The translations under genes and the position numbers were made by a program. The notes beneath the pieces were generated by a model. The model was not told the DNA's origin, searched no databases, and worked only from the letters and a program-made list of their open reading frames with translations. Shown here piece by piece: positions 15,585 to 58,329 of a stretch of 64,000 nucleotides of DNA. This DNA is from a virus. Taxonomy: Duplodnaviria > Caudoviricetes. Where the stretch lies: the IMG/VR virus record IMGVR_UViG_3300024331_000061, positions 19,784-83,783 of that record; one strand, given 5' to 3'. Numbering within the stretch: position 1 is the first letter of the stretch; every line of letters starts with the position of its first letter.

Positions 15585-16154
15585 CTACCTGCCTGCCTGG
15601 GCTCGCTGGCGGACGCGGCTCGGGATGATGTCCTCGGCGTCCACCTGGCGAGCGCCAGCCCCCGGATCGCCGTCCCAGTTCTCGCTGCCCGGCTGCGGCT
15701 CCTGGCCCTCGGGCACCTCGCGGTACTCCACGGCTGAGCTGCCCGGCGGGTCCGGTCGCGCGAAGTCCGTCCCCGGCGGGGGAGGGGGCGGCGCATGCAG
15801 CGCGCCGGACACCGCCTTGGGCGGGACGCGGCGCAGCGGCTCGCTGGTCGATCCGGGTCCGGTGGCCGGGCGGATCACCGCGATCCGGCGTCCGTCCCTG
15901 ACGCCGTGCCGCATGTACGTCGCGGCCTCGGCCTCGGTCAGGTGCACCGTCTCGCCCGCCAGCACCAGGTCCGTGTTCTTCTCCGGGTCTCCCCGGCGCG
16001 GCACGGACAGCGGGATCAGGGCGATGTAGGGGTCACCGATGCGGACAGCGGGGGCCATGCCCGCGCTGGCCCGCGCGAGCAGGTCGTCCAGCGTCTTCTG
16101 CTCGCTGGCGGTGAGCGGCCGGGTTTCCTCGGCAGCCTTGGGCTGGGCGGGCAT
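15585..16154 (-). CDS. Hypothetical protein following the major capsid gene
   Basis: 189-aa ORF with a 1-nt overlap with the capsid gene stop; Pro-rich C-half. Confidence 0.6.
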   Translation of the reverse strand: MPAQPKAAEETRPLTASEQKTLDDLLARASAGMAPAVRIGDPYIALIPLSVPRRGDPEKNTDLVLAGETVHLTEAEAATYMRHGVRDGRRIAVIRPATGPGSTSEPLRRVPPKAVSGALHAPPPPPPGTDFARPDPPGSSAVEYREVPEGQEPQPGSENWDGDPGAGARQVDAEDIIPSRVRQRAQAGR

Positions 16155-17065
16155 CAGACTCCAGAGAGCAGGCAGATGGCCAGCGGCTGGTCGAGGCCGA
16201 TGGCGGAAGCCCGCTGGGTGTCGGAGCGCCAGGTCTTCCTGGGCTCGTCACGGTAGAGGGGACCGGCGACGTAGGGCAGCTCGTCCGCGAAGAACCCGGC
16301 GCGCTGGCGCTGCATGACGATCGCGTTGCCAGCCGGGACCTGGCGGCTGACCAGCACGTCCAGGTTGAAGATCTTCTGCGGGAGCTTGCCGGTGTAGAGC
16401 AGGTTCTCGCTGGCGATGTCACCGATGTACGGCGCGGCGAACGTGCTGCTCTGGAGCAGCGTGTTCTTGGTGCCGTGGTTGATGATCAGCGTGTCGGCCT
16501 CGAAGCCGAGCCACTGCGTGACCCCGGACGGGCTGACGATGTTGGCGTTCTCGATGAGGAAGCACGCCTGGGCCAGGTCAGCCCGGATGGTGGCCGCAGC
16601 CGACGCCCAGGTGTTGCTCACCGCGAGCGTCTGGATGCTGGAGTTGGCCACCACCGCCGAGTAGAAGGCGGTGTTCCAGCTGTAGACCATGGTGTTCTTG
16701 ACCTGCATGAGCTGCCGGGTCACCGGGTCTACCGCCTGGCGGCGGCGCATCTCGTCCGAGAGCATGATGGCCATCGCGCGCTCGTGCGTGAAGACCACTC
16801 GCGGGATGCCGATGCTCGTCGGCACGACGGGCACCTCACCGAACTCTGGCCGGATCTCGGGGTAGTCATCCGCGTACAGCGGCGTGCTCTCCGAGTACCT
16901 GACTGCACCACTTGGTGCAGCCCCGCCCATGCGCAGCACCGAGTCCATCACGAACTCGTTCTGGGTCATGTCGAGGATGAGAGCAGGAATGACCAGGGGG
17001 TCCTTCAGCAGCTCATTGACGGTAATGCGCGGTGCATCGCTGTAGCCGCGAGTCCCTACCGGCAT
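16154..17065 (-). CDS. Major capsid protein (HK97 fold)
   Basis: 303 aa after the protease and decoration genes. EFGEVP motif, and the C-terminal D-x-P-x-A-I-x-x-L-x-GV ending typical of major capsid proteins. Confidence 0.85.
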   Translation of the reverse strand: MPVGTRGYSDAPRITVNELLKDPLVIPALILDMTQNEFVMDSVLRMGGAAPSGAVRYSESTPLYADDYPEIRPEFGEVPVVPTSIGIPRVVFTHERAMAIMLSDEMRRRQAVDPVTRQLMQVKNTMVYSWNTAFYSAVVANSSIQTLAVSNTWASAAATIRADLAQACFLIENANIVSPSGVTQWLGFEADTLIINHGTKNTLLQSSTFAAPYIGDIASENLLYTGKLPQKIFNLDVLVSRQVPAGNAIVMQRQRAGFFADELPYVAGPLYRDEPRKTWRSDTQRASAIGLDQPLAICLLSGV

Positions 17066-17610: not shown

Positions 17611-17814
17611 CTAGCTGCCGTTCGATACGGCGAAGCCGAGTCCGAGCTGGTCGTGCATGGTGGTAGTGGCCACGGCCCGCAGGTTGCCCGCGCCGAGCGC
17701 GGTTACCTCGGCCGCGCTCAGCTCCAGCACCTGCTTGACGAAGACCACTTTGGCCGGGTGCTGGTAGTCGGTCGCCGCGATGGTGACCGGGACGGTTACG
17801 ACGAATCGTGACAT
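17611..17814 (-). CDS. Small hypothetical head-region protein
   Basis: 67-aa ORF adjacent to the protease stop. Confidence 0.55.
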   Translation of the reverse strand: MSRFVVTVPVTIAATDYQHPAKVVFVKQVLELSAAEVTALGAGNLRAVATTTMHDQLGLGFAVSNGS

Positions 17815-19011
17815 CTACGACAGGCCCATCTGCTGCTTGGCCCGCGCGATCACGTCGGCGCGCGAGGTCTCCGCAGCGGTGGCCTGGGCGTCCTCGGGGC
17901 CTTCCATCGCGGAGCCCAGCTCCACGCCGAGGTCGAGCATCTGCGCCATCTTGGCGTACTCGCTCAGCACCCGGCGCATGACCTGGCCGGCGTCCACCCG
18001 CGTGCCGCCGGTCAGCTCGATCACGTGCCCGGAGCCCTGGAGCAGCGGCCGGGCCAGCTCGGTGATGTACGGCGGGATGCCGAGGTCAGCCAGGCTGCGC
18101 TTCTCGCCCTCGAACTTCTGGGCATCGAACTGGACCTGGAAGACACCCAGCTGGCGCTCGGTCTCGTCGGCGCGGGCGTTGGCCAGGTCGATGGCCATCT
18201 GGGCCTGGTTGGTCAGGCCGGTGGCGGCAGCGCCAGCCCCGGTCTCGGCCAGGAACTCGCTCTCCAGGTCGGCCAGGTCCTCGTCGCTCATCGCCTCGAT
18301 GAGGTCGGCCAGCTCCTGGTCGGTCAGCTCGTTGTCGGGCTGGCCGCCGGTGCCGTTGGTGCCGCTGGCCGGGGGAGCTGGCGGTGCCGTGCCGAGCAGC
18401 TTGTCCAGGGCAGCCGCGTCCAGGTTGAGCAGCCTGGTCAGGTTGGCCTGCTGCTGGGCGTTCAGTTCGGGCATGGTGTCTTCCTCCCCAGCAAAGCTGG
18501 CTCCGGTGAGATCGATGACAAGAGACGGCGTGTTGGCCGCCTCGATGGTCTGCCACGCGCCCAGACCGGGGATGCGCGGGTCCAGCGTGCCGAGGACGTG
18601 CTGCACGGCGGCGGGGTAGAACTTACCGTCTGACCTGGCATAATTCTCGACAATCCTGGCCGACACCCCCAAATACGGGTTCTCCCTCAGCACCTGCTCG
18701 CCGCGCTCGGTGGGCTGGAGGTACAGCCAGAGGCCGTCATCCTCGGAGCGGAGGTCCGTGATGGTGCCCCTGTGACGCTCGGGATCGTTGGTGTGCGTGT
18801 TCTTCGCGTCGGCTAGCTGGAAGGACACCTGGTCGTAGGCGCGGTCGCGGAACGCCTGCGCCAGGCTGTCGTTGTAGTCCTTGCTGAAGTGCAGCATGCG
18901 GCCCTGGTACTCCACGTCATCGACGGGCAGCACGCGCTTCTTCCAGAGCCGGTTGCCCAGCTCGATCGCGTTGCCCCGGAAGAACGGGGTCAGGACCGCA
19001 GCGGTATCCAT
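17815..19011 (-). CDS. Prohead (capsid maturation) protease with C-terminal scaffold
   Basis: 398 aa. The N-half has H...G-x-I-x-x-L...Y-x-x-VS-x-x-I...L-x-HV-x-x-T-x-x-P, as in Mu I-type proteases; the C-half is acidic coiled-coil. Confidence 0.8.
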   Translation of the reverse strand: MDTAAVLTPFFRGNAIELGNRLWKKRVLPVDDVEYQGRMLHFSKDYNDSLAQAFRDRAYDQVSFQLADAKNTHTNDPERHRGTITDLRSEDDGLWLYLQPTERGEQVLRENPYLGVSARIVENYARSDGKFYPAAVQHVLGTLDPRIPGLGAWQTIEAANTPSLVIDLTGASFAGEEDTMPELNAQQQANLTRLLNLDAAALDKLLGTAPPAPPASGTNGTGGQPDNELTDQELADLIEAMSDEDLADLESEFLAETGAGAAATGLTNQAQMAIDLANARADETERQLGVFQVQFDAQKFEGEKRSLADLGIPPYITELARPLLQGSGHVIELTGGTRVDAGQVMRRVLSEYAKMAQMLDLGVELGSAMEGPEDAQATAAETSRADVIARAKQQMGLS

Positions 19012-19013
19012 GG

Positions 19014-19736
19014 CTACTTCCCGAAGTTGTCGGCCCGCTTGGCGAAGGCGTGCGCCTTCTCGGGCGGCCAGCCCTTGGCCCGCAGCTTCTTGTGCACGCT
19101 CTTGCCCTTGGGACCGAGGTCCTTGGGCGTGTCGTCATCCTCGTCATTGTCGTCGTCCGAGCTGCCTGAGCTGGTGACGCGAGCACCGTTCGATGAGCTG
19201 GAGTTCGGGAAGGCGAACGTGCGGATGGCCGGGACGCCGAAGTGCTCCATCAGCGGGGTCTGGACGGCGGGCGGCTGGAGTCCGGGGGACTCAGCTGGCC
19301 TGGCCAGGCTGGCCGTGCCCTTGTTCCAGGTGGCGAGCAGCTCGCCCAGCGCGCCGCGCTGGTGCGTGTGCGGGCTCAGCTCCTTGCCCTCGTAGACGGC
19401 CTGCCAGCCCTGGTCCCCCTGCCGGATCTCCCCGATCATCCCGCCGCCCCGGCGGTGCCGGATCGAGGCGGTGCCCTGCGGCGTGCGGCTGACCAGCACG
19501 TCATTCGGGCTGGCAACCGGGTAGCGCGGGGTAGCCATGTCAAGCTGCGTTGACAGGCTGACCGTCTCGGCACGGTAGCCGCACCGGGGACAGGCACCCG
19601 GCGCGGGGCTGTTGCCGTCGCCCGCGAACTCCATCACGCCCTGGCCGCGAGCACGGCTGGCGATGAAGGCGGCGAGTTCAGCTGGGTTCGCTGCCCCTCG
19701 CGCGGCGAGCGTTCCCGTTGCCAGGCGACCGGCCAT
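19014..19736 (-). CDS. Putative capsid-internal protein (CPRC knuckle, basic C-terminus)
   Basis: Start reassigned to ATG 19736 after GGAGG; 240 aa; contains MEFAG and LDMAT variants of the repeated linker motif. Confidence 0.6.
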   Translation of the reverse strand: MAGRLATGTLAARGAANPAELAAFIASRARGQGVMEFAGDGNSPAPGACPRCGYRAETVSLSTQLDMATPRYPVASPNDVLVSRTPQGTASIRHRRGGGMIGEIRQGDQGWQAVYEGKELSPHTHQRGALGELLATWNKGTASLARPAESPGLQPPAVQTPLMEHFGVPAIRTFAFPNSSSSNGARVTSSGSSDDDNDEDDDTPKDLGPKGKSVHKKLRAKGWPPEKAHAFAKRADNFGK

Positions 19737-19817
19737 GCGCCCTCCAAGTCTCAACCTCTACTTGAGAGTCAGCGTAGACCGTCAAGCGGCGGATGTTAGC
19801 ACCCGCCGCGCCTGAAA

Positions 19818-19958
19818 TCAGGAATCACCACGCTGGATAGCCTCGTCAACGAACATTTCGGCGGCCTTCGCGGCGTCCTCGGGCTCCATGCCCTTGTCCT
19901 CGAACGAGTTCTTCATCACGGTGATCGCGGTCTGCCGGACATCCTCGGGAACTGGCAT
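19818..19958 (-). CDS. Small acidic hypothetical protein (46 aa)
   Basis: MPVPEDVRQTAITVMKNSFEDKGMEPEDAAKAAEMFVDEAIQRGDS; 1-nt overlap with the upstream stop; not in the ORF track. Confidence 0.5.
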   Translation of the reverse strand: MPVPEDVRQTAITVMKNSFEDKGMEPEDAAKAAEMFVDEAIQRGDS

Positions 19959-20641
19959 CAGACCTTCTTGACGAACTCGGTGATGAGCTGGACGGCGATA
20001 GGCCCGAGCGCGGCTGCGATGGCAATCATCGGGGCCACGCCGACTGCGGACAGGGCCATGGCGATGATGGCACCCGCCAGCGCCACGCCGCCCTCGATGG
20101 CCAGCCGCGTCCGGGCCGCCTTCTGCTCCTTGAGGTCCTGCGCGGCCTTGGTGGCTTCCAGCTCCTTGTTGGTCTTGTCAACCTTGTCGATGATCTCGTG
20201 CACGATCGCGGCGTGCTCGGCGCGCAGCTGCCCGGCCATCTCGGCTGCGGCGGCTGCGGCGCGGGCCTTCGCCACGGCATCTACCTCCGGGGCCACCTTG
20301 GGCAGCTCCCCAGACCCGGACTTGGACTTGTCCTTGGCCTGGCTGCTGATCAGCACGGCCCCGCGCGTCCACTCGCCGTGCAGCCCGCGCATCTCGTGCT
20401 CCCATGCGGCCAGGTCCATCACCTGCTCAGCGATCCCGGCGAGCTGCACCGGGGCCAGCCTGGCCAGCATGGTGCCCACGTCCTGGATCTCGCGCAGCGC
20501 GGCCCCGGTGGCCGACCTGGCCAGCTCGCGGACCCTGGACCGGCCCTCGGCCGCACGGGCGGCCGGGTCCTCGTAGACCCAGCTCAGCACGCCGTACGCC
20601 TGCCGCCCCTGGAGCGTGTCACCGCCAGCCCTGGCACCCAT
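19958..20641 (-). CDS. Putative internal/ejection protein with C-terminal transmembrane hairpin
   Basis: 227 aa; carries the IAEQVMDLA-AWEHEMRGLHGEW linker, a coiled-coil, and two C-terminal hydrophobic helices. Confidence 0.6.
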   Translation of the reverse strand: MGARAGGDTLQGRQAYGVLSWVYEDPAARAAEGRSRVRELARSATGAALREIQDVGTMLARLAPVQLAGIAEQVMDLAAWEHEMRGLHGEWTRGAVLISSQAKDKSKSGSGELPKVAPEVDAVAKARAAAAAAEMAGQLRAEHAAIVHEIIDKVDKTNKELEATKAAQDLKEQKAARTRLAIEGGVALAGAIIAMALSAVGVAPMIAIAAALGPIAVQLITEFVKKV

Positions 20642-23600
20642 CAGGCTGCTCTCCCTTCACGGGCCATGCGCTCAGTATGCGCCGTCTGGTGCACGGTGCG
20701 GACGGCGGCGCGGTGCGCGTTCACGGCGGCTTCCTGCCCGGACCAGGCTTCCAGGATGGCCCGCCTGGTCTCGACCTCCACCCTGGCCATCGCTATCTCA
20801 TCCGTCAGCAGCGGCGCGTCGGGCGAGTCCTTCAGCGCGGCCATGATCACCTGGCGGGCCATCACGTTCACCTTGCGGGACGCGCCCTCGCGGTTGATCT
20901 CGTCGGACAGCTCACGGGTCCGGGCGTAGCCGGGCGTGCTCATCCGCAGGTCGCCGTGGCCCTCGTCCTGGGCCACCTGCTGCACCCAGTCCTGGGCCAT
21001 GGCGGTCTGCCAGCCGTAGTGCCCCCAGGCGCTGCCGTTCTTGATCTTCACCGGGTCCTGGGCCGCCAGGGCCATGTCCGCCAGCGTCTGCATCTGGAAC
21101 CGCATCACGCCCGGCTCCGCAACCTTCCGTTCCCCGATGCCCATCGCCTTGAGGAACTCGGGGGCGTGGTGGATGGTGGCCAGCTCCGTGAACCCTTCCT
21201 CGATCGCGCCCGTGGCCGGGTCCTGGTAGGCGCGCTGGTGGTCGCTGTATTCCTCGCGGTACAGGGTCCTGATGCCGAACGACCGGCGCTTTTCGTTGAT
21301 CTTGGCCTCGCTGCCGCCGATGTCCGCGTGGGTGAACTCGTGCAGCAGCACCTCAGCTGAGTCAGGGTGATCGACCGGGCGGAACTGGTGGGCCATCATT
21401 TCCTCGATGCTCCTGGCCACCACGCCTGAGACTTGCAGCTCCCCGGACCAGCTCATCTGACCGGCGGTGTCGGGGTCATCGATGCCCACGGTGACCTTGC
21501 CGTTCCACGCCTCGCGCCCGCCGCCCAGCAGGCCCGGCACCAGCGGAGCGCCTTTGGCCGCGAAGTCCCTGACGGCCTTGTGCATCGACTCGTAGGACCC
21601 CTCGCCCTGGAGCGGCGGGATGTCCTCCCCGGAGGGCGGGGTCTCCCTGCCGACCGCCGAGCCGTCGAGCCACTTGTTCATGTGCGACCACCGGCCCCGG
21701 TCATCCCGGCTCTCCAGCGGGTTGAAGTGCCAGGCTAGGAGGACCTGATCCCGGATTGAACCGCCGTGGCCAGCTCGGCTGCCATCGCCAGCCGCTCGTC
21801 CTCGGGCAGGTCCGCGTAGCCCTCCGGGACCTTGACCAGCACCTTGGTTGGCGTGCTCTGTGATGCGTCCGCCACCGCTGCCTCCTGTCGGGATCTCGGC
21901 GTAGTCCGGGAGGCTGTAGACCGAGATCTGGTTCCGCGACCTGCCCGCCGCTACCGCCATGGACTTGCTGGCGAAGTTGTCGCTGGGCTCCAGCCACAGC
22001 TTGCCGTCGTGCACCCATCCGCCCAGGTACGCCTGCTTCCCGGTGAACGAGTTCTTCTCGGCCATGATCATGTCATCGATGGCGCGGGTCAGCTTCGCGT
22101 GGTCGTCCAGGATGGCGGCCGGGTACGTGTGCGTGTGGTCTACCTGGGCCACCATGTACCCGCCGGGCGGGCTCTCTCCCGTCCGCACGCTGACGCTGAA
22201 GCCCTTGTGGTGCGCAGCAGCCGTACTGGCTGCGCTCTCAGCTGCGCCGAACCGGGTCCACCGTCCCCGGCTGTCCCGCAGCTCAGCCAGCTCGACAGCC
22301 TGCCCGCTGATGGTAGCCAGCCCGGCTGCCTTCTTCCTCAGGGCCAGGTAGTTCGCCCACCGGATCATCGTCTCGGTGTGCCAGAGCGAGCGCCCGTGGC
22401 TGGCGAAGTCAGCCTGCATGGACCGCAGCCGGGCCTCCATGGCGCGGACCTCGCCCTCGGGGATGCCGTTGGGGTTGGCGAACAGGGCGCGGGTGAACGG
22501 GCTGACGGTGCCCTTCTGCCCGTTCGGGCCGACTACGCCCGGCCGGAAGCCGTTGGTGCCGTAGGCACTTGAATTGTCAATCGGGACCGGCTTGTCCCCG
22601 TCCATCAGGTAGTTGTGCGAATGCCTGTCCGGGTTGTCGATCAGGTAGTCGAGCATCCCGATCCGCAGGCCCCTCGGGCTGGAGAACAGGTCCGGCATCG
22701 CGTCGTACGGGTCCTCGGGGTCCACGTTGCGGTCTGCCAGGTAGCGCTCGGCCAGCACGCCCTTGCTGAAGGCCATGGTGACCTGCTTCGGCCCGCTGCG
22801 GTGCACGGCCGGTGCCCCGGTGCCCTCCACCGCGTCAGCCACGGTGGCCGCCAGCTCTTCGGAGTCGGCCAGGTCCTTGGCCGGGTGGCCCTGCCAGTCG
22901 AGCAGCGTCTTCTGGACCGCCTTCTGGCCGTTGTTCAGAGTCAGGATCTCGGTCCTGCCCTGGAGCCCGTCACCGAGCTTCTTGTGCGAGGCGATCCCGC
23001 TGGCCAGGTCGCTGGCCACCCGCGCCACGCCACCCCGCGTCCAGCGCCCGTGCCGGTCCCGCAGCTCGTGCTCCCAGACGGCCAGCTCGACGGCCTCGTT
23101 CCAGTCGCTGACCACCTGAGCCAGGCTGGTCGTGCCGGGGTGCAGCGGCAGGCCCTCGGCCCCGGCGTACTTCGCCCACTTAGCCCAGGCATTCCTCAGC
23201 ATGGTCGTGCGGCCCTTGGCGCGGGCGTTCTCGGGGCTGGCGGGGTCGGCGGCCTGGACCGCCGTGACGGCCAGGTTGGCGCTCTGCTGGTGCAGCCAGG
23301 TGATGGCCTGGAGCTGGTGCGGCGCGATCGGCGTGCCCTGCTCGTTGAGCTGGCGGGCTGCCTCGCGGTACTGGTCCGCGACGTACTCGTGGTAGCGGGC
23401 CTTGCCGATCGGCGGCTCGATGTTGTCGGGCAGCCGTACGCCCATGGCCACGGACAGGGCGTGCCGGTCGATCACCACATGGCCCTTGGTGTCGGACGGG
23501 GCATCGCCGCCGTTCTCGATAAGGTGCGCGAACGCCCTGGTCTTGGGTGCCTGGAGCGCCTCGTCCACGGTGGCTCCGTCCAGGGCCTCCTGGGCGTTGG

Positions 23601-26109
23601 CCTGCATGGCCCCGCTGATCAGCCCGTCCCCTGGCCCGAGCGCCCGGTGTTCCTCAGCCGCCCTGGCTGAGTTGAACATGTTGACCGGCCAGCTGGCCTG
23701 CGGGCTGTAGGCAGCCAGCAGGATCGCGCCCTTGCGGGCGTCCCCGTCAGCCATCTTGGCAGCCAGCATGTGGGCGTCGGCGTACCAGCGCATCCCCTGG
23801 GCCTTCTCCTGGTCCGAGGATGCCCTGTATGCCGCGATCACGTTGGCCGGGCTGACCGGGTGCGCCCTGAAGAACGGGTGGTCCTCCGGGTGCGGGTAGT
23901 TGATCGGGCTCTTGTTCTTCTTGATCAGCAGCCGCTCGTGCCTGGGCACCATATAACCCGCGCCCCTGCTCCATTGGCCGTGAGCATCCCGCTTCTCAGC
24001 CGGGTTGAACCGCCAGCCCAGATCCAGGGCCTGGGCGCTGATGCCAGCCCAGTTCTGCCCGCCAGCACCGGGAGCCGCGCCGGGTGCGATGTCGTTGAGC
24101 CGCGAGATCATCTGCGTGTACCAGTCATCGTGGCCCAGCCGGTGGAACTCGGGCTTGATCGTGGCCAGGCCCTCTACCAGCTGCTCGTACTCGGCCGTGT
24201 CCAGGACCTCGTTGTGCCAGAAGGGGCTGTTGGTCCCGTAGCTGCTGGCGAAGCCGCCGCTCATGTCGATGGGCACCGGCACGTCATCCGGGGTGATCAT
24301 CCAGTTGAAGTCGTGCCGGTCGGGGTTGGAGATCAGGTAGTCGAGCACACCGATCTTGTGGCCCTGGGGGTTGTCCTCGCTCTCCAGGTCGTAGGTGTCA
24401 GCGCCGCCTGAGTAGTTCCCGGCCACCTCGCCGGGCACGAAGCCCATGATGATCTCGTCGGGCTCGCCGTCCGTCAGGCGGGCTACCGGCGGTGCGCCAG
24501 CCCCGACTACCTGGCTGACGTAGTAGGACAGCTCGTCGGCGTCCGGCATGGACTGGTAGCCGGATAGGTACTTCTTGTGCACGACCTTCTCGCCGCTGGG
24601 CAGCGTGACGATCTCGACGGTGCCCTGGATGCCGTCACTGGAGTCCTCGGAATCACCCATGGCCAGGTCATCCTCGGTGATCTCCTGGAGCTTCCTGACC
24701 TCTGGGCTGTTGTGGCCGACCTCTTCTGGCGGGCTCGGCATGCCCGGCAGCAGGTACTGCTTGACGCCGGGGGCCACCATGACGCCAGGCGGGCTCGGGC
24801 TCGGCGGCGGCGGCGTCGGCTGCTTAGCCGGTTCCTCCATCGCCCGCAGGGCCGTGTCGGACACGTGATGCTCGTTACCGGCCCCGTCGGTGATCAGCCA
24901 GGGCGCATCCGGGTTAGGCGGGTGCGGGTCGAGTGCGACCCACGCCATCGGCCCCGGCCCGCTGACCACCCGGAACTGCATCCCGGCCATGCGATTGATG
25001 TCCGGCGGCTTTGTCGGGCCGAGCAGCGAAGCCGAGTGGTGCTCAGCCATCCTCCTGGCCCAGGCTGCGGCCCCGATCGCGGGCATCTGGGAGATCGGCT
25101 GCTCCTGCCGGATGACCCCGCCGTTCTTCCAGTCGATCAGCCGCCGCATGCCGTCGGGCGCATCGACCACCACGTGGCCGCCTGCCACGGCCACGACACG
25201 GCCCTGGAGGCCCATGCTGCTCTGGGCCAGGTCCCCCTCCTTCGGAGCCCCGGTCCTCGGCATGATGCCAGTGCCCCGGAAATTCCAGGCTCCGGGGATG
25301 TGCGGCGGGACGGCGGGCAGTGCCGGGCCGACCTCGGACAGCGGGACGGTGTGCACGGGCACCCCGCCGTTGCGCCAGTCCACCAGGTGCCGCATGCGGT
25401 CGTTGGCGTCGATGGCCGCGTGACCGCCCGCCACGGAGATGACGGTGCCCCAGACGCCCTGGCTGTTCTTGGCCTGGTCCCCGACTCGCGGCTCCGTGAC
25501 GATCTGGTTGCTGATGAGGCCGCCCCGGACGAACTGCCACGCGCCGAGCAGGTGAGGCACGGGCACGGCACGCCCGGCCCTCAGCGCCCTGTTCCGCTCG
25601 GCCTCTCGCTGCATGGCCTCGCGGCCCTCTTTCAGCGTGCTCGCGCCCTGCGGGAACGGGTGAGCATGCCGGATGATCTGGCCCTGCTCATCGACGGTCC
25701 AGGTCTGTCCGCCAGCCCTCCTGTTGTCGTGCTGCTTGGCCTTCAGCTCGGCAGCCGGTGTCCAGGGCCGGGATACGGGAGCCGGGTGCATCCGGTCCCA
25801 CTCGGCCATGTGCTGACGACGCTGGGCGAGCTGACTGCGGATCGTCTCCGGGCCGTTGCCCTCGGCCTTCAGCCGCCGGGCGATGGCCTGCTCGGTGATG
25901 CCGCCGCCGAACTGCTGGCGGCCCGCCTTGTCCCGTTCATGCGCCGCCTTCTGCCTGTAAACCTCGCTCGGCCAGCCCTGGCGCGCGTTCTCGCGGGCGA
26001 AGGTGTCCGGCCGCCAGGTCGTCTTGATCCACCGGCCGTGGCTGTCCCTCGGGTGCAGGACGCTGTTGAAGAACGCCAGCTCCAGGATCTGCTCGCTGAT
26101 GGTCGTCAC
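20641..26109 (-). CDS. Polyvalent capsid-internal polyprotein (two HipA/PI3K-like kinases, HhH-glycosylase-like domain, unknown domain, HExxH metallopeptidase)
   Basis: 1822 aa. DYLI-x-N-x-DRH-x-x-N...PID occurs twice; VVIDRH...HQLQAITW; LLHEFTH...EEGFTE; five ELA/RDxxGRW-type linkers. Confidence 0.8.
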   Translation of the reverse strand: MTTISEQILELAFFNSVLHPRDSHGRWIKTTWRPDTFARENARQGWPSEVYRQKAAHERDKAGRQQFGGGITEQAIARRLKAEGNGPETIRSQLAQRRQHMAEWDRMHPAPVSRPWTPAAELKAKQHDNRRAGGQTWTVDEQGQIIRHAHPFPQGASTLKEGREAMQREAERNRALRAGRAVPVPHLLGAWQFVRGGLISNQIVTEPRVGDQAKNSQGVWGTVISVAGGHAAIDANDRMRHLVDWRNGGVPVHTVPLSEVGPALPAVPPHIPGAWNFRGTGIMPRTGAPKEGDLAQSSMGLQGRVVAVAGGHVVVDAPDGMRRLIDWKNGGVIRQEQPISQMPAIGAAAWARRMAEHHSASLLGPTKPPDINRMAGMQFRVVSGPGPMAWVALDPHPPNPDAPWLITDGAGNEHHVSDTALRAMEEPAKQPTPPPPSPSPPGVMVAPGVKQYLLPGMPSPPEEVGHNSPEVRKLQEITEDDLAMGDSEDSSDGIQGTVEIVTLPSGEKVVHKKYLSGYQSMPDADELSYYVSQVVGAGAPPVARLTDGEPDEIIMGFVPGEVAGNYSGGADTYDLESEDNPQGHKIGVLDYLISNPDRHDFNWMITPDDVPVPIDMSGGFASSYGTNSPFWHNEVLDTAEYEQLVEGLATIKPEFHRLGHDDWYTQMISRLNDIAPGAAPGAGGQNWAGISAQALDLGWRFNPAEKRDAHGQWSRGAGYMVPRHERLLIKKNKSPINYPHPEDHPFFRAHPVSPANVIAAYRASSDQEKAQGMRWYADAHMLAAKMADGDARKGAILLAAYSPQASWPVNMFNSARAAEEHRALGPGDGLISGAMQANAQEALDGATVDEALQAPKTRAFAHLIENGGDAPSDTKGHVVIDRHALSVAMGVRLPDNIEPPIGKARYHEYVADQYREAARQLNEQGTPIAPHQLQAITWLHQQSANLAVTAVQAADPASPENARAKGRTTMLRNAWAKWAKYAGAEGLPLHPGTTSLAQVVSDWNEAVELAVWEHELRDRHGRWTRGGVARVASDLASGIASHKKLGDGLQGRTEILTLNNGQKAVQKTLLDWQGHPAKDLADSEELAATVADAVEGTGAPAVHRSGPKQVTMAFSKGVLAERYLADRNVDPEDPYDAMPDLFSSPRGLRIGMLDYLIDNPDRHSHNYLMDGDKPVPIDNSSAYGTNGFRPGVVGPNGQKGTVSPFTRALFANPNGIPEGEVRAMEARLRSMQADFASHGRSLWHTETMIRWANYLALRKKAAGLATISGQAVELAELRDSRGRWTRFGAAESAASTAAAHHKGFSVSVRTGESPPGGYMVAQVDHTHTYPAAILDDHAKLTRAIDDMIMAEKNSFTGKQAYLGGWVHDGKLWLEPSDNFASKSMAVAAGRSRNQISVYSLPDYAEIPTGGSGGGRITEHANQGAGQGPGGLRGPARGRAAGDGSRAGHGGSIRDQVLLAWHFNPLESRDDRGRWSHMNKWLDGSAVGRETPPSGEDIPPLQGEGSYESMHKAVRDFAAKGAPLVPGLLGGGREAWNGKVTVGIDDPDTAGQMSWSGELQVSGVVARSIEEMMAHQFRPVDHPDSAEVLLHEFTHADIGGSEAKINEKRRSFGIRTLYREEYSDHQRAYQDPATGAIEEGFTELATIHHAPEFLKAMGIGERKVAEPGVMRFQMQTLADMALAAQDPVKIKNGSAWGHYGWQTAMAQDWVQQVAQDEGHGDLRMSTPGYARTRELSDEINREGASRKVNVMARQVIMAALKDSPDAPLLTDEIAMARVEVETRRAILEAWSGQEAAVNAHRAAVRTVHQTAHTERMAREGRAA

Positions 26110-26300
26110 GGGCGAGCCCAGACGTAGCCGTTGCTCCAGCCGTTCAGGACCCTGAACGCTTCCTCGGGATCACCGCCTGCCTTACGGACGGCTGAGTCGG
26201 CCATGGTCTGGAGGCTAGGGGAGCTGGCCAGCAGCCGCCCGGCGTCCAGGCTGATCGTGCCGAGCTGGCCCTTGGCGTCGAACACCCGCAGCGTAGCCAT
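26106..26300 (-). CDS. Small hypothetical protein
   Basis: 64-aa ORF coupled to both neighbours. Confidence 0.55.
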   Translation of the reverse strand: MATLRVFDAKGQLGTISLDAGRLLASSPSLQTMADSAVRKAGGDPEEAFRVLNGWSNGYVWARP

Positions 26301-28819
26301 CAGCTAGCCAGCAGGATGCCATCTGGCTCATTGGCCAGGGCGATCTGCTTCAGGTCGGCCGCGATCTGCACGTTGAGCTGGTGGATCTGCGCCCGGAGCG
26401 ACGTGATCAGCTGCCCCCTGGTCGGGGCCTTCTTGCCCGCCGGTCCCTTCCTGGCCGGTGCGCCCTTCTTGGCTGGCGTGGCCGCCGCCGTCTTGCCGGT
26501 GGCCCCGGCCTTCTGGGCAGCCTTCGTGGTCTTCTGCTTGACCACCGTCAGCTTGGCCAGCTGCGCGGTGAGCAGCTTCAGCTTGGCCCGGTCAGCCTTG
26601 ACCCGCGCCCGGAGCTGCTGCTTGCTCAGGCCCGCAGATGCCGTCGTGCCGCCGCCTCCCCAGGTGCCGACCGGCGTCCGGGCCTGCGCCGGGTTGAACC
26701 CGGCCAGCTCGATCGCATCGAGCACGTCGCCCCAGCTGTGCGCGTGGGCTCGGGCCTGCTTGGCGCTCCAGTCCGCGCTGGTGGCCGCCGAGGCGGCCCG
26801 CACCTCGGGCCTGACGTTGCCGCCGCCAGCCGCCCAGCGCTTGGATGCGCCCCGCGCGATGGCGATGGCCTGGCTGAGCGTCTTGGCCCGGCCGGTGCGC
26901 AGCAGAGCCCTGGCGATGTTCTGGATGTACGGCGGCAGCTCCATGCCCTTGACGCCCCAGAGCCCCGGCCCGCCCGGCTTGCCGAACGGGTGCGGCTCGG
27001 TCGCCAGCCTGCCGGTGTCGGCGCTCAGCAGGATCGCGGCGTCGATGTCTTCCCAGCTGGCCTGGATGGTGGCCATGATGCCTTGCTTGATCTTGGCGTA
27101 GTAGGCGGGGTCCGCGATGCCCAGCATCTTGGATTGCGCCGGGCTGAATGCGGGCATGGACGCCAGCGCCTCGAAGTCCTGGATCTTCTGCGCCGCTGAC
27201 GCATCCCGCCGGTAGGTCCTGGCGTCCGCCGTGACCGCAGGCCCGTGCGAGTGGAGCTGGCCGGGGTGGGCCGCGTGCAGGTCCTCGTGCACCTTCACGA
27301 AGTCCTCGTAGGTGCGGGTCTCGCGGTTGAACCCGGTGCGGCCGGTGGGCAGCCCGAGCTGGTGGCCCTCCGCGATGTGCTTGATCATCGCTGCCCTGGT
27401 CTTGGGGATGCCGTGGAAGACCCAGCCGTGGCTGTAGCCCTTCGGGCCGGTCAGCTCGATCGCGTCGAGCACGTCAGCCCAGCTGAACTGGATGGTGGGC
27501 GGGCCTGGCGGCATCTCCAGGCTGCCGCTGGCCGACCAGGCGGCCACGTCGTTGTTCCAGCCCGCGACCTTCTTGCCGAACGTGGTGCCTGGTGTCGCCG
27601 CCTCTGCCTTCTTCGCCTTCCGGGCAGCCAGCTCCTGCTGGTATTGCAGGTCCCTGGCCCGGTTCTCGTGGATGTGCGCCAGCACGCTGTCCCCGCCCTC
27701 GCGGGCCACCTGCGCACTGCGCAGCTCACCCGCGATCTGCTGGGAGAGCTTGTCCTTCTTGACCCCGGCGGCGCGGGCACCGCGCTGGAGCTGGATGTTG
27801 GCGAGGACCTCATCGCCGCCCTCGCGGGAGACCTGGGCGGACCTGAGCCAGCCGTGGCTCCAGCCACCCGGTCCTACCAGCTCTACCGCTGCACCCGTTG
27901 AACTCGCCTGGATCATGGCCCGGCGGGCTCGTTCCTCGGCCACCAGCCTGTGCAGCTTGTGCTTGTGCCCCTCGGAGCTGAACATGTTGGCGAAGCCCCT
28001 GGCCTCGCGCTTGGACAGGTGCCTGCCGAACGGCTGGTTGAGCCGTCCTGCCGTCGCCTCCAGGGACGCCCCGGCCTCTACCTGCCGCAGCCAGCCGTGG
28101 CTCCAGCCGCCGGGTCCGGTCAGCTCGACGCCGCCAGCCGGGTTGGCGTGCTTCTGCCCGAGCTTGGCGAAGCCCTTGCGCCCGTACTTCTTCCGCCCGA
28201 TGTACGCGGCCAGCGCACCTGGGTTCCTCGCGCCCCTCTTGGCCAGCGCGCCCTTCAGCGCGCTGAAGTTCTTGCCGCTGCCCGGCTTGGCCCCGGCGAA
28301 CGTAGCCAGCCCGATCACGCCGTCGAGGTCCTCCCAGGACAGCGCCTTGAGATGCTGAGCCTGCGGGGAGACCGCAGGCGCGGCGGCGACGGGTCCTGGT
28401 GCACCATTCGGTGCACCGACGGGGACGGGCTGGCTGGACGGCAGGAACGTCTTACCGCTGGCCGCCGCCATCGCCCGCTTCTGCTCCATGAACCCCTCGT
28501 TGCGGGCTCGCACGTCATCGATGTCCTTGACGTTGAGCAGGTGCCGGTACGCCTGCTGCATGTAGAGCTTGGCTGCCATGTGGCCCTGGTCGTCGTGCAC
28601 GCCGTGGCGGGTGATCTGGAGCGGGGCGAAGCCCTCGATAGCGGCGTTCAGGTGCCGCCTGGCTCCCTCTGTGCGCCCGCTGTCCAGCTCGCGGGCAGCG
28701 TCGGCCAGGTGGTCGTGCACGCTCATGTCGGGGAAGGTCTGGGCCACCTGAGCTGCGAGCTTGCGGATGCCCGCGCTGGTGCGCTGCTTCATGGGGGTGG
28801 TTGGGGTGATCCTAGTCAT
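26300..28819 (-). CDS. Large basic putative capsid-internal polyprotein with repeated ELTGPGGWSHGW modules
   Basis: Start reassigned to ATG 28819 (ATGA overlap with the MuF stop); 839 aa; repeated SW-x-D-x-x-x-A-I-E-L-A linkers. Confidence 0.7.
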   Translation of the reverse strand: MTRITPTTPMKQRTSAGIRKLAAQVAQTFPDMSVHDHLADAARELDSGRTEGARRHLNAAIEGFAPLQITRHGVHDDQGHMAAKLYMQQAYRHLLNVKDIDDVRARNEGFMEQKRAMAAASGKTFLPSSQPVPVGAPNGAPGPVAAAPAVSPQAQHLKALSWEDLDGVIGLATFAGAKPGSGKNFSALKGALAKRGARNPGALAAYIGRKKYGRKGFAKLGQKHANPAGGVELTGPGGWSHGWLRQVEAGASLEATAGRLNQPFGRHLSKREARGFANMFSSEGHKHKLHRLVAEERARRAMIQASSTGAAVELVGPGGWSHGWLRSAQVSREGGDEVLANIQLQRGARAAGVKKDKLSQQIAGELRSAQVAREGGDSVLAHIHENRARDLQYQQELAARKAKKAEAATPGTTFGKKVAGWNNDVAAWSASGSLEMPPGPPTIQFSWADVLDAIELTGPKGYSHGWVFHGIPKTRAAMIKHIAEGHQLGLPTGRTGFNRETRTYEDFVKVHEDLHAAHPGQLHSHGPAVTADARTYRRDASAAQKIQDFEALASMPAFSPAQSKMLGIADPAYYAKIKQGIMATIQASWEDIDAAILLSADTGRLATEPHPFGKPGGPGLWGVKGMELPPYIQNIARALLRTGRAKTLSQAIAIARGASKRWAAGGGNVRPEVRAASAATSADWSAKQARAHAHSWGDVLDAIELAGFNPAQARTPVGTWGGGGTTASAGLSKQQLRARVKADRAKLKLLTAQLAKLTVVKQKTTKAAQKAGATGKTAAATPAKKGAPARKGPAGKKAPTRGQLITSLRAQIHQLNVQIAADLKQIALANEPDGILLAS

Positions 28820-29502
28820 GCCACTCGTACCAGCCTCCTGAACGACGCGCCGTGGGCGCTTGGCAGCATTCTCGCACCGATGTGCGCCGGACCTGGGTAA
28901 CAGCGGCAGTGCGGATGCACCGCGCCGGGCCAGCCGATCAGCGGGATGGCCGTGGCCTCGAAGTTCTTCCCGTTGGCCGCCTTGCACTCGGTGCTCGTGC
29001 GTGCGTCGAGCACCGTGTTCCAGCCGAGCAGGTTGCCGTAGGTCATGGCCGCCGAATCCACCTGGGCAGCTGCCTTCGCCCGGTTCCACATCGCGTCGAG
29101 ATGCTGGCCGAAGTACCGTCGCTCGCGCGCAATTGCATCTGCAAGCGCCTTCTGCAACGGCTGACCGTGGCTGCGGGCCTCGGTCAGGTCGCTAGTAACG
29201 CGGCGGCCAGCTGCGAGGGCGAACTGAGCCCGCCGCAGGTAGTTCTGCCGTGCGGTCGTCAGGGACGCGGAACCAGCGACCCCCGTCCTCTCCGGTGGAA
29301 AGCTCATCACCATATCCAGGACGGCCAGCATCGAGGCGGGTTGCACCTGGGACGTACGGAAGGACGGAAGTAGGCTCGTCAGGACCGCCATGGGTGTCAC
29401 CGCCGAGGCCAGCGCCGTGGCCAGGGCCGCGATAATGGCCGTATCTGTCGCCGTAACCGGCGAGGATGGCGGGGGCGGCGGCTGCTGAGCGGGCGTAGTC
29501 AT
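28816..29502 (-). CDS. Head morphogenesis protein (MuF / SPP1 gp7-like)
   Basis: W-x-T-V-L-D-A-R-T-x-x-x-C...G...P-x-x-x-HP-x-CRC motif; follows the portal gene. Confidence 0.85.
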   Translation of the reverse strand: MTTPAQQPPPPPSSPVTATDTAIIAALATALASAVTPMAVLTSLLPSFRTSQVQPASMLAVLDMVMSFPPERTGVAGSASLTTARQNYLRRAQFALAAGRRVTSDLTEARSHGQPLQKALADAIARERRYFGQHLDAMWNRAKAAAQVDSAAMTYGNLLGWNTVLDARTSTECKAANGKNFEATAIPLIGWPGAVHPHCRCYPGPAHIGARMLPSAHGASFRRLVRVA

Positions 29503-29695
29503 CTGGATCGACTCCCATCGCTACCAGCATGCGCCTGTGCAGGTGCCAGGCCAAGCGCACCCGCTCCGTGTGCTGCCTGTCCGCGTAGACCCGCAGCCGG
29601 TGCACCCGGTACATCAGGATCACCGTCATGACCAGGCTGGCTGCGATGCCCGCCGTGACGAGCTGCTGGAAGTGCTGGTGCCAGTAAACACTCAT
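29192..29695 (-). CDS. Small membrane protein (C-terminal extension overlaps MuF in another frame)
   Basis: ATG overlaps the portal stop; N-terminal TM helix. Only the first ~64 aa lie outside the MuF gene. Confidence 0.45.
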   Translation of the reverse strand: MSVYWHQHFQQLVTAGIAASLVMTVILMYRVHRLRVYADRQHTERVRLAWHLHRRMLVAMGVDPDDYARSAAAAPAILAGYGDRYGHYRGPGHGAGLGGDTHGGPDEPTSVLPYVPGATRLDAGRPGYGDELSTGEDGGRWFRVPDDRTAELPAAGSVRPRSWPPRY

Positions 29696-33249: not shown

Positions 33250-33322
33250 GCCCCGCGAGCATAAGCATTCCGGCCGGGGATACTGTCCGACACGGTAACC
33301 GGCCGAATCCGGCTCGCGGGGC
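33250..33322 (-). ncRNA. Short Y RNA (73 nt; Ro-binding module only)
   Basis: Terminal stem GCCCCGCGAGC/GCUCGCGGGGC with GAGCCGGAUU...UUAUGCUC internal motif and GGUUACCG, shared with the two upstream elements. Confidence 0.8.
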
Positions 33323-33345
33323 ATTCAGTTCTTCTGGGTTGAGCA

Positions 33346-33394: not shown

Positions 33395-33402
33395 CACAAA
33401 AA

Positions 33403-33498: not shown

Positions 33499-33516
33499 GG
33501 ATGATCTTGAGTTATG

Positions 33517-58296: not shown

Positions 58297-58329
58297 TTGA
58301 TGTGGCTAACCAAACGCAATTTGACTTCC

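What the first reader, a model, noticed from the sequence alone, without database searches (positions are those of the whole stretch)
17815..28819. Shared linker motif suggests a prohead-protease cleavage code across five head genes
Seen: [IVAL]-[ED]-L-[ASTG] recurs at domain borders. In the 1822-aa protein: TISEQILELA, ISAQALDLG, WNEAVELA, TISGQAVELA, IRDQVLLA. In the 227-aa protein: IAEQVMDLA. In the 839-aa protein: GVELTG, AVELVG, SWADVLDAIELTG, SWEDIDAAILLS, SWGDVLDAIELAG. In the protease itself: NAIELG near the N-terminus, VIDLTG at the protease/scaffold junction, AIDLA, GVELG. Established: prohead proteases (e.g. T4 gp21) cut internal head proteins at short motifs. Inference: these genes encode polyproteins that are packaged and then cut into many mature effectors, giving a modular cargo-loading system that could be engineered.
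Basis: partly seen in the sequence, partly recalled or inferred. Interest (0 to 1): 0.8.

Follow-up and report, generated by a model that had tools for sequence, protein, structure and literature searches.

The report
Phage cargo polyproteins with protease-site linkers
An uncultured soil phage strings enzyme modules into giant head proteins, and each joint carries a short peptide that also marks the phage's own capsid protease, so the chains are probably packed into the capsid and cut apart there, although no cutting has been measured.

Summary
Every quoted string is present. The tetrapeptide [IVAL]-[ED]-L-[ASTG] is 3.6 times denser in the five head proteins than in the rest of the 83.8-kb genome (p = 3e-4). 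That excess comes mainly from the 398-aa protein. Without it the 4-mer alone is not significant (p = 0.065).

The real signal is longer. The tetrapeptide opens two bipartite linkers. One is phi-E-L-[AG]...R-[DG]-x-x-G-[RE]-W. The other is phi-E-L-[VTA]-G-P-x-G-[YW]-x-H-G-W. In 48 related viral contigs, 52 and 28 distinct linkers all lie in ORFs upstream of the protease gene. They bound modules that reassort between phages.

The N-terminal domain of the 398-aa protein has the T4 gp21/herpes assemblin fold (Z 11.2) with invariant His73, Ser117 and His138. Four motif sites in its scaffold-like tail are conserved down to about 44% identity.

The cleavage-code reading is therefore well motivated but unproven. 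A conserved zincin (HExxH) module in the cargo protein is a rival cutter, and a docking role is possible.

The RDxxGRW half of the linker is widespread in other polyvalent proteins that lack the E-L-A core.

This scan has reported similar "protease-site linker" polyproteins in other phages. This case is a new variant of a known kind.

The parts
17815..19011 (-). 398-aa protease-scaffold fusion. Residues 1-150 form the assemblin-fold protease domain (window 18562-19011). The rest is a helical, acidic, scaffold-like tail.
   Evidence: AF2 model: residues 1-150 have pLDDT about 90. Foldseek puts T4 gp21 (5jbl) first, E 1.4e-4. VIA gives Z 11.2, rmsd 3.5 A, 131 residues aligned. There are 688 homologues and no Pfam or PHROG match.
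18598..18795 (-). Candidate catalytic residues: His73 (18793-18795), Ser117 (18661-18663), His138 (18598-18600).
   Evidence: All three are invariant in 23 homologues down to 52% identity. They are also present in Araceli gp14 and in the Mwe-JY05 homologue. Their spatial superposition on the gp21 or assemblin triad was not checked.
18955..18966 (-). Protease site 1: I-E-L-G (aa 16-19), near the N-terminus.
   Evidence: Kept as A-[IV]-E-[LM]-[GSA] in about 15 of 23 homologues. Also present in Araceli and Mwe-JY05.
18505..18516 (-). Protease site 2: I-D-L-T (aa 166-169), at the protease/tail junction. Its position resembles a release site.
   Evidence: D167 and L168 are invariant. The site lies in the pLDDT<50 segment 164-179.
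18181..18192 (-). Protease site 3: I-D-L-A (aa 274-277).
   Evidence: A277 is invariant. [IL]-[DE]-[LM]-A is found in all 23 homologues.
18010..18021 (-). Protease site 4: I-E-L-T (aa 331-334).
   Evidence: L333 is invariant.
17914..17937 (-). Protease site 5: L-D-L-G-V-E-L-G (aa 359-366), about 35 residues from the C-terminus. Its position resembles a maturation site.
   Evidence: E364 and G366 are invariant. The site lies in the pLDDT<50 segment 360-376.
17611..17814 (-). 67-aa protein with a conserved V-L-E-L-S site (17716-17727).
   Evidence: ORFs of this size class immediately downstream of the protease account for 24 motif hits across the 48 dereplicated loci. By BLAST, homologues of the 67-aa protein are present in 26 of the 48 loci.
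19014..19754 (-). 246-aa head protein with an L-D-M-A site (19533-19544) just before its conserved core.
   Evidence: An alignment of 38 upstream neighbours of the protease gene shows [AV]-[VIL]-x-[LMF]-[AST] directly before the conserved core RRxPVxSPxDVLVxR. Some homologues start with a type-A or type-B linker.
19958..20641 (-). 227-aa protein with one type-B linker (20351-20455): AGIAEQVMDLAAWEHEMRGLHGEWTRG.
20641..26109 (-). 1822-aa polyvalent cargo protein. It has five modules: PI3/4K-like kinase, DUF7178, a second PI3/4K-like kinase, an unknown 140-aa module, and a C-terminal HExxH module. Each module is headed by a type-B linker, at 26026-26103, 23953-24063, 23023-23127, 22240-22332 and 21670-21780.
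   Evidence: Pfam finds DUF7178 at E 4e-36 and PI3_PI4_kinase twice. Linker alignment A2. The modules reassort with their linkers. In the AF2 model of aa 1250-1460, the folded core has pLDDT 81-95 and the linkers are below 50.
21328..21342 (-). HEFTH motif (aa 1590-1594) of the C-terminal zincin-like module. This module is the rival processing enzyme.
   Evidence: LHE[MLF][IT]H is conserved in 11 of 14 homologous modules. There is no Pfam match.
26300..28819 (-). 839-aa basic head protein. It has three type-A linkers with cores at 28118-28129, 27875-27886 and 27449-27460, each followed by GPxG[WY]SHGW. It also has four SWxD...I-x-L-[AST] sites, for example 26702-26713.
   Evidence: There are 28 distinct type-A linkers in related loci, all upstream of the protease gene.
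28816..29502 (-). MuF-like head-morphogenesis protein that precedes the cargo genes.
   Evidence: Pfam Phage_Mu_F at E 1e-5, below the family's curated cut-off. PHROG head-morphogenesis families match.
29695..31287 (-). Portal protein. It marks the upstream limit of the head module and has no motif.
   Evidence: Portal_Mu at E 3e-30. No motif hits.
16154..17065 (-). Major capsid protein, 303 aa, with no delta domain and no N-terminal motif site.
   Evidence: phrog_1650 at E 1e-70. Its single A-D-L-A lies internally.

Best explanation
The tetrapeptide phi-[E/D]-L-[A/G/S/T] is most likely the recognition site of this phage's own assemblin-fold prohead protease, which is the N-terminal 150 residues of the 398-aa protein.

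**Proposed sequence of events (inferred).**
1. The protease-scaffold fusion and the MuF-linked cargo proteins (839, 1822, 227, 246 and perhaps 67 aa) co-assemble inside the procapsid.
2. The protease frees itself at a release-like site (VIDL|TG).
3. It trims the capsid-binding tail of its scaffold part at a maturation-like site (VEL|GS).
4. It cuts the cargo chains at the start of every linker.
5. This yields about a dozen separate modules that stay in the head and are ejected with the DNA. They include two PI3/4K-like kinases, DUF7178, a zincin and basic proteins.

**Scissile bond (inferred).** By analogy with assemblin (V/L-x-A|S) and T4 gp21 (L/I-x-E|small), which both have a hydrophobic P3 and a small P1', the cut is probably between Leu and the small residue.

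**Second half of the linker.** This half (aromatic-x-H-G-W or R-D-x-x-G-R-W) would then become the N-terminal tag of each mature module. Its role is unknown.

**What is shown.** The fold of the protease, the conservation of the sites, and the linker-module architecture.

**What is inferred.** Packaging, cleavage, the bond that is cut and ejection.
For: **Protease.**
- Fold: (T4 gp21 Z 11.2; herpes assemblins Z 5-7.5).
- His73, Ser117 and His138 are invariant.
- It is the only candidate. The complete genome has no Peptidase_S78 gene.

**Self-sites.**
- Four to five motif copies in the tail are conserved in 23 homologues, in Streptomyces phage Araceli gp14 and in Microcystis phage Mwe-JY05.
- Sites 2 and 5 lie in predicted disordered segments.

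**Enrichment across 48 dereplicated loci.**
- 249 observed against 39 expected in the protease, 52 against 12 in the portal-protease interval, and about 1x elsewhere.
- The unbiased tripeptide scan recovers IEL and ELA in the cargo and in the protease tail only.

**Linkers.**
- 52 type-B and 28 type-A distinct linkers all lie upstream of the protease gene. Many sit at the extreme N-termini of ORFs, like T4 capsid-targeting propeptides.
- Linkers end 2-55 residues before shuffled modules and are predicted to be unfolded.
- The tetrapeptide is the only element shared by type-A linkers, type-B linkers, the SWxD sites, the 246-aa boundary and the protease tail.

**Against the zincin as general cutter.**
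- Three loci with a complete portal-protease interval have linkers but no HExxH.

**The E-L-A core tracks this protease family.**
- RDxxGRW linkers of other polyvalent proteins lack the E-L-A core.
- Where context was available, those proteins sit in contigs with Peptidase_S78 (2 of 5) and never with this protease family.

**Precedent.** T4 gp21 with its capsid-targeting sequence (PMC9026906) and SPN3US gp245 with A-x-E (PMC10052503).
Against: - There is no experimental datum for this phage or any relative. No virion proteome or N-terminal mapping was found.
- In this genome alone the 4-mer is not significantly enriched in the cargo proteins (p = 0.065).
- Several linker copies have L, G, Q, S or N in place of E/D (VLLA, ILLS, IGLA), so the acidic position is not strict.
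- Site 1 of the protease lies in a confidently folded strand, and sites 3 and 4 lie in structured elements.
- Araceli's cargo protein has only one copy.
- A zincin module is conserved at the end of many of these polyproteins.
- The catalytic triad was not superposed in 3D.
- The contexts of class-A and class-B linkers could be sampled in only 5 fragmentary contigs.
Confidence: 0.5

Rival explanations
1. The motif is a docking or capsid-targeting peptide. It would bind the scaffold part, the protease or the inner face of the capsid shell, much as encapsulin cargo-loading peptides or the T4 capsid-targeting sequence do. It would load cargo by avidity, with or without later cleavage.
For: - There are many copies per chain, and copies at the extreme N-termini of ORFs.
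- Flanking residues are conserved on both sides ([ST]-I-[ST]-x-Q before the core; W/H/G-rich after it).
- Sites 1, 3 and 4 of the protease lie in structured elements.
- In T4, targeting and processing reside in the same 10 residues (PMC9026906).
Against: - The tetrapeptide is the only part shared between otherwise unrelated contexts. That fits a protease subsite better than a binding epitope.
- The two best-conserved tail sites lie in disordered segments at release-like and maturation-like positions.
- This reading is not exclusive of the main explanation.
Confidence: 0.2
2. The polyproteins are processed at the linkers by their own embedded zincin-like metallopeptidase (HEFTH at aa 1590), or by another non-capsid protease, as proposed for polyvalent proteins in general. 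The likeness of the 4-mer to the prohead protease tail would then be coincidental.
For: - The HExxH module is conserved in 11 of 14 homologous C-terminal modules.
- Iyer et al. 2017 predict processing by metallopeptidases (PMC5512222).
- The RDxxGRW half of the linker is shared with polyvalent proteins of other lineages that are rich in HEAxH modules, for example P0180 and P0220.
Against: - Three related loci with a complete portal-protease interval carry linkers but no HExxH.
- The E-L-A core is absent from the RDxxGRW linkers of other lineages and is conserved in the protease tail of phages whose cargo has no zincin (Araceli).
- The module has no Pfam match.
Confidence: 0.15
3. The motif has no signalling role. 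The linkers would be flexible hinges or recombination joints inherited by duplication, and the 4-mer reflects the Ala/Leu/Glu-rich composition of a 69% G+C phage.
For: - The 4-mer alone is only 2.2 times enriched in the cargo of this genome (p = 0.065).
- The linkers within one protein are clearly homologous to one another.
Against: - Shuffled-sequence expectation is exceeded 4- to 6-fold in 48 loci, but not on the other strand or in the portal.
- The same core sits in three non-homologous linker types and in the non-homologous protease tail.
- Core residues are invariant at about 50% overall identity, within otherwise variable, low-complexity tails.
Confidence: 0.1

Closest known systems
T4 prohead protease gp21 with the internal proteins IPI-III and Alt, and their capsid-targeting sequences (MEROPS S77)
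   Same: - Same protease fold (Z 11.2).
- A short motif is shared by the protease's own termini and by head-internal, ejected proteins.
- N-terminal propeptides of about 10 residues end in the motif.
- An enzyme cargo (Alt in T4).
   Different: - The motif is phi-[E/D]-L-small, not L/I-x-E.
- Here the sites are internal joints of polyproteins up to 1822 aa, not only N-terminal propeptides of single-domain proteins.
- There is no Pfam or PHROG match to gp21.
- The protease is fused to a scaffold-like tail.
- The host is presumably an actinobacterium and the head genes are of the Mu-portal/MuF type.
Herpesvirus assemblin-scaffold fusion (UL26 type; release and maturation sites, V/L-x-A|S). This comparison rests on my own knowledge of the family.
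   Same: - Assemblin fold (Z 5-7.5).
- His/Ser/His order of invariant residues.
- The protease is fused to a scaffold.
- One conserved site lies at the protease/scaffold junction and another about 35 residues from the C-terminus.
   Different: - The P1 residue is different.
- There are additional internal sites.
- There is no sequence similarity.
- Cargo polyproteins are not a herpesvirus feature.
Polyvalent proteins of phages and conjugative elements (Iyer, Burroughs, Anand, de Souza, Aravind 2017, PMC5512222)
   Same: - Several unrelated effector domains in one chain: kinases, DUF7178 and a zincin.
- The genes sit next to head genes and are predicted to be delivered with the DNA and to be proteolytically processed.
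   Different: - That paper predicts processing by embedded metallopeptidases and, in the text searched, describes no linker motif.
- Here every module is headed by a defined bipartite linker, and its first half matches the capsid protease's own sites.
phiKZ-like phages (SPN3US gp245, cleavage after A-x-E; PMC10052503)
   Same: A prohead protease processes itself, the scaffold-like proteins and abundant ejection proteins at one short motif. Several motif copies occur within a propeptide.
   Different: The motif is different, the phages are jumbo myoviruses, and the substrates are separate gene products rather than multi-enzyme polyproteins.

Membership tests
Assemblin-like prohead serine proteases (T4 gp21 S77 / herpes S21 / HK97 S78 superfamily) | Assemblin/gp21 fold of the catalytic domain | tested here: met
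   AF2 residues 1-150 have pLDDT about 90. Foldseek: 5jbl at E 1.4e-4, probability 1.0. VIA: Z 11.2, rmsd 3.5 A over 131 of 164 residues, followed by about 25 herpes proteases at Z 5-7.5.
Assemblin-like prohead serine proteases (T4 gp21 S77 / herpes S21 / HK97 S78 superfamily) | Conserved Ser and His catalytic residues in the right spatial positions | tested here: inconclusive
   H73, S117 and H138 are invariant in 23 homologues, in the order His-Ser-His as in assemblins. The model coordinates could not be superposed residue by residue.
Assemblin-like prohead serine proteases (T4 gp21 S77 / herpes S21 / HK97 S78 superfamily) | Sequence membership in a curated family model (Peptidase_S78, Peptidase_U9/S77, Mu-like_Pro) | tested here: not met
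   P0001 has no Pfam or PHROG hit. No PDB sequence hit. PF04586 is absent from the whole genome. It is therefore a distinct, unnamed sequence family of at least 688 cluster representatives.
Assemblin-like prohead serine proteases (T4 gp21 S77 / herpes S21 / HK97 S78 superfamily) | The gene lies next to the scaffold and major capsid genes | tested here: met
   The order portal - MuF - cargo - protease - 67 aa - 165 aa - major capsid protein is seen here and in 48 related loci, in Araceli and in Mwe-JY05.
Assemblin-like prohead serine proteases (T4 gp21 S77 / herpes S21 / HK97 S78 superfamily) | Autoprocessing and cleavage of head proteins | not testable with these tools
   This needs biochemistry or virion mass spectrometry.
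Polyvalent proteins (Iyer et al. 2017) | Two or more unrelated effector or enzymatic domains in one polypeptide of a phage or conjugative element | tested here: met
   DUF7178 at E 4e-36, two PI3_PI4_kinase-like regions and a conserved HExxH module. The modules are independently distributed among related loci.
Polyvalent proteins (Iyer et al. 2017) | Embedded zincin-like metallopeptidase | tested here: inconclusive
   The motif LHE[MLF][IT]H is conserved in 11 of 14 homologues. No Pfam model matches and no fold was predicted.
T4-type capsid-targeting propeptides | N-terminal propeptide of about 10 residues ending in the protease motif | tested here: met
   The 1822-aa protein starts V-T-T-I-S-E-Q-I-L-E-L-A. 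At least 10 related ORFs start with [ST]-I-[ST]-x-Q-phi-phi-E-L-[AG] or x-phi-D-L-V-G-P-x-G. This is a match at sequence level only.
T4-type capsid-targeting propeptides | The propeptide directs packaging and is removed | not testable with these tools
   No experimental data were found for this clade.

The most novel reading that the evidence does not exclude
Cargo modules of phage polyvalent proteins may carry a two-part address label.

The second part would be universal: an aromatic-x-P-x-[EQ]-x-R-D-x-x-G-R-W "module head". It is found in more than 500 protein clusters from unrelated phage lineages and appears to be undescribed.

The first part would be lineage-specific: a site matched to whichever capsid protease the phage uses. 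Here that is phi-E-L-A with the new assemblin-fold family. In phages with HK97-type proteases it may be L-x-K|[YF]-S.

If this holds, modules could be exchanged between phages by swapping only the first part. The protease specificity of uncultured phages could then be read from their linkers.
Probability: 0.25. Interest if true: 0.8.

Novelty: new variant of a known kind. Interest (0 to 1): 0.6.

Why it matters
If the reading is right, it gives a readable rule for which proteins an abundant group of uncultured soil actinophages loads into the capsid and injects, and where those proteins are cut. That turns 1-2 thousand-residue "hypothetical" proteins into lists of discrete effectors, including kinases, DUF7178 and zincins. 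It also defines the substrate motif of an unnamed prohead-protease family with at least 688 cluster representatives.

It suggests a simple handle for loading foreign proteins into phage heads, as the capsid-targeting sequence does in T4. The widespread RDxxGRW linker is a separate lead for understanding how polyvalent proteins are built and processed in general.

Tried and rejected
- **Family and sequence searches on the 398-aa protein.** Pfam, PHROGs and a PDB sequence search found nothing. Only the fold search identified it.
- **tblastn of one 39-aa linker against 50,697 phage records.** No hit.
- **The look-up of encoding contigs.** The whole-contig context of linker-bearing proteins could therefore not be fetched. 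The search for related loci and the genome search on handles were used instead.
- **The search for related loci with two class-B polyvalent proteins.** Nothing found.
- **Degenerate DNA pattern for the class-B linker.** It gave 7 contigs, but they are fragments (22-73% complete). The absence of the P0001 protease family in 5 of them is weak evidence.
- **Fold search of the 140-aa fourth module.** No credible match; the best was eIF4E-like at E 0.17.
- **C-terminal HExxH module and the 839-aa protein.** No Pfam match.
- **Downstream enrichment of the motif (109 against 46).** I considered it as evidence against specificity. I rejected that because most of it comes from two conserved single sites that are counted in many related loci.
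- **ORF 58302-59663.** I considered it and rejected it as a gene because its translation is low-complexity.

Full report
**Context.** The window is part of an 83,783-bp viral contig that CheckV rates as complete. It has 69% G+C. Its head module is most like those of uncultured soil viral contigs. More distant relatives are Streptomyces phages of the Araceli group and Microcystis phage Mwe-JY05.

The head genes lie on the minus strand in this order:
- Mu-type portal, 29695-31287
- MuF-like protein, 28816-29502
- 839-aa protein, 26300-28819
- 64-aa ORF
- 1822-aa protein, 20641-26109
- 227-aa protein
- 246-aa protein
- 398-aa protein, 17815-19011
- 67-aa and 165-aa proteins
- 303-aa major capsid protein without a delta domain, 16154-17065

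In a GC3-filtered gene set for the whole genome, the strict pattern occurs 15 times in 3532 residues of the five head proteins. It occurs 23 times in 19,556 residues elsewhere (odds ratio 3.6, p = 2.6e-4). Seven of the 15 are in the 398-aa protein. Without that protein the excess is 2.2-fold and p = 0.065. The bare 4-mer is therefore weak evidence for the cargo proteins of this one genome.

Comparative data settle the matter. I fetched 80 related loci from IMG/VR and dereplicated them to 48 at 85% protease identity. Counts against per-protein shuffles were:
- protease homologues: 249 observed, 39 expected
- portal-to-protease interval: 52 observed, 12 expected
- other upstream ORFs: 134 observed, 47 expected
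- opposite strand: 18 observed, 15.5 expected
- portal: 1 observed, 2 expected

The downstream structural genes show 109 against 46. Most of that excess comes from two single conserved sites that are counted in many loci: the 67-aa protein and one internal helix of the capsid protein.

An unbiased tripeptide scan gave IEL (56 observed, 8 expected), HGW, ELA (119 against 35), GRW and GEW among the most over-represented words in the cargo ORFs. ELA is also enriched in the protease tail (73 against 20). In downstream proteins it is at expectation (18 against 16).

**What the motif is part of.** The tetrapeptide is the first element of longer linkers.
- Type B: [ST]-I-[ST]-x-Q-phi-phi-[E/D]-L-[A/G], then 1-14 residues (often x-W-x-H-E-x), then R-[D/G]-x-x-G-[R/E]-W-[T/I]-x-G. 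There are five copies in the 1822-aa protein, including one at residues 3-28, and one in the 227-aa protein.
- Type A: phi-[E/D]-L-[V/T/A]-G-P-x-G-[Y/W]-x-H-G-W. There are three copies in the 839-aa protein.
- The 839-aa protein also has four S-W-x-D-phi-x-x-[A/V]-I-x-L-[A/S/T] sites.

In the related loci I found 52 distinct type-B and 28 distinct type-A linkers. Every one lies in an ORF upstream of the protease gene. None is downstream or on the other strand. Many sit at the very N-terminus of an ORF. In this genome the linkers occur only in the head module.

**Linkers bound independent modules.** The five segments of the 1822-aa protein have different distributions among the 48 loci: kinase 5, DUF7178 19, second kinase 5, fourth module 8 and HExxH module 14. 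Wherever a segment recurs, a linker ends shortly before the homologous region, whether the segment is at the start of an ORF or internal. This holds for DUF7178 in 15 of 20 proteins, with a gap of 10-55 residues. For the fourth module the gap is 2 residues in three proteins, and the next linker follows about 35-40 residues after it.

An AF2 model of residues 1250-1460, built on a 9-sequence alignment, gives a folded core with pLDDT 81-95. It is flanked by a linker and a Gly-rich tail plus the next linker, both with pLDDT below 50.

**The protease.**
- The 398-aa protein has no Pfam, PHROG or PDB sequence match. It does have at least 688 homologous cluster representatives.
- With a 23-sequence alignment, AF2 folds residues 1-150 at pLDDT about 90.
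- Foldseek ranks T4 gp21 (5jbl) first, at E 1.4e-4 and probability 1.0, followed by herpesvirus proteases.
- VIA-align gives Z 11.2, rmsd 3.5 A and 131 aligned residues for gp21. About 25 herpes assemblins score Z 5-7.5.
- His73, Ser117 and His138 are invariant. I could not superpose them on the known triads.
- The genome has no Peptidase_S78 gene, so this is the only capsid-protease candidate.

The remaining 250 residues are acidic and helical, like a scaffold. Within this otherwise variable tail, four sites are conserved in all 23 homologues down to 52% identity: V-I-D-L-T-G (164-169), A-I-D-L-A-N (273-278), V-I-E-L-T-G (330-335) and V-E-L-G-S (362-366). D167, L168, A277, L333, E364 and G366 are invariant. 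The N-terminal A-I-E-L-G is kept in about two thirds of them.

The same sites are present in Araceli gp14 and in the Mwe-JY05 homologue, at roughly 42-52% identity by tblastn, with seven motif copies each. Site 2 lies at the end of the protease domain and site 5 about 35 residues from the C-terminus. Both are in segments with pLDDT below 50. From my own knowledge, these are the positions of the release and maturation sites of herpesvirus UL26.

**Other head proteins.**
- The 246-aa family is present next to the protease gene in 41 of the 48 loci. It has [A/V]-[V/I/L]-x-[L/M/F]-[A/S/T] directly before its conserved core, and some members start with a type-A or type-B linker.
- The 67-aa protein after the protease carries V-L-E-L-S. 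ORFs of its size and position account for 24 motif hits across the 48 loci.
- The portal, the MuF-like protein and the N-terminus of the capsid protein have no site.

**Mechanism.** The tetrapeptide would be the substrate motif of the assemblin-fold protease. The protease would process its own scaffold part and cut the co-assembled cargo chains at each linker.

Precedents are T4 gp21 with the capsid-targeting propeptides (PMC9026906) and SPN3US gp245, which cuts after A-x-E in itself and in ejection proteins (PMC10052503). The motif here differs from both. By analogy with their hydrophobic P3 and small P1', I infer a cut between Leu and the small residue. This is inference only.

**Rivals.**
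- *Embedded zincin.* The 1822-aa protein ends in a module with a conserved LHE[MLF][IT]H motif, found in 11 of 14 homologues. Iyer et al. proposed such metallopeptidases as the processing enzymes of polyvalent proteins. Against this as the general cutter, three related loci with a complete portal-protease interval have linkers but no HExxH. Araceli keeps the protease-tail sites although its cargo ends in an ADP-ribosyltransferase.
- *Docking or targeting role.* The conserved flanks and the N-terminal copies fit this. It is not exclusive of cleavage.
- *Composition or simple hinge.* The shuffles, the strand and portal controls, and the invariance within variable tails all argue against this.

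**A wider finding.** A profile of 52 type-B linkers was searched against 1.84 billion representatives. It hit 569 proteins at E <= 1e-3 and 118 at E <= 1e-10. Most are 500-3800 residues long with 2-9 copies.

Of the top 149 hits, 81 carry the E-L-A-type core upstream of the RDxxGRW element. Another 54 do not. Those 54 have instead [K/A]-[Y/F]-[S/D/N]-P-D-[Q/E]-P-R-D-x-[H/R]-G-R-W-T. They are typical polyvalent proteins, with ART-PolyVal, DUF7178, ADP-ribosyltransferase and GNAT domains and repeated HEAxH modules.

No Pfam model covers the linker, and Iyer et al. do not mention it in the text I searched.

Seven IMG/VR contigs contain this second linker class. Of the five I examined, none encodes the P0001 protease family and two encode Peptidase_S78. 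The contigs are fragments, so this is only suggestive.

The pattern fits a bipartite label: a generic module head preceded by a site matched to the capsid protease of the lineage.

**Limits.**
- No cleavage, packaging or ejection has been measured for any member of this clade.
- The gene calls are my own GC3-based approximation.
- Counts across loci are not phylogenetically independent, despite the dereplication.

This is a new variant of a known kind: prohead-protease-processed head cargo combined with polyvalent proteins. Earlier reports of this scan describe similar protease-site linkers in other phages, with other motifs.

Noticed in passing
window 58300-60300: A C-rich stretch of about 2 kb (GC skew -0.35) with no credible ORF. 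It is packed with degenerate short direct repeats built on CCGACT(C/A)GCC-like units (27 repeat families).
   Followed up: partly
proteins P0129-P0277 (hits of linker profile A2); loci L083-L089: The RDxxGRW half of the linker is widespread: 569 cluster representatives, with up to 9 copies per protein. It occurs in polyvalent proteins of other lineages with the consensus [KA]-[YF]-[SDN]-P-D-[QE]-P-R-D-x-[HR]-G-R-W-T and without the E-L-A core. No Pfam model covers it.
   Followed up: partly
window 31547-33223 and 33250-33666: A Ro60 (TROVE plus vWA) gene lies between the packaging genes. Earlier notes of this scan report three Y RNAs upstream of it.
   Followed up: no
window 22330-22977 and 24040-26019: Two paralogous modules in the cargo protein have a PI3/PI4-kinase-like catalytic loop (DYLISNPDRHDFNW and DYLIDNPDRHSHNY). 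The Pfam scores are below the family cut-off when the modules are scanned singly.
   Followed up: partly
window 17089-17586: The 165-aa protein between the protease and the capsid gene is annotated 'scaffolding protein' in Araceli. Here it looks beta-rich with no predicted coiled coil, and it has no Pfam match. The real scaffold may be the tail of the 398-aa protein.
   Followed up: no
L002 (Microcystis phage Mwe-JY05) 5187-6359 and 6720-11729: The same decapeptide context V-V-E-L-A-R-Y-V-R-T occurs both in the 390-aa protein annotated 'capsid maturation protease' and in the 1669-aa cargo protein.
   Followed up: no
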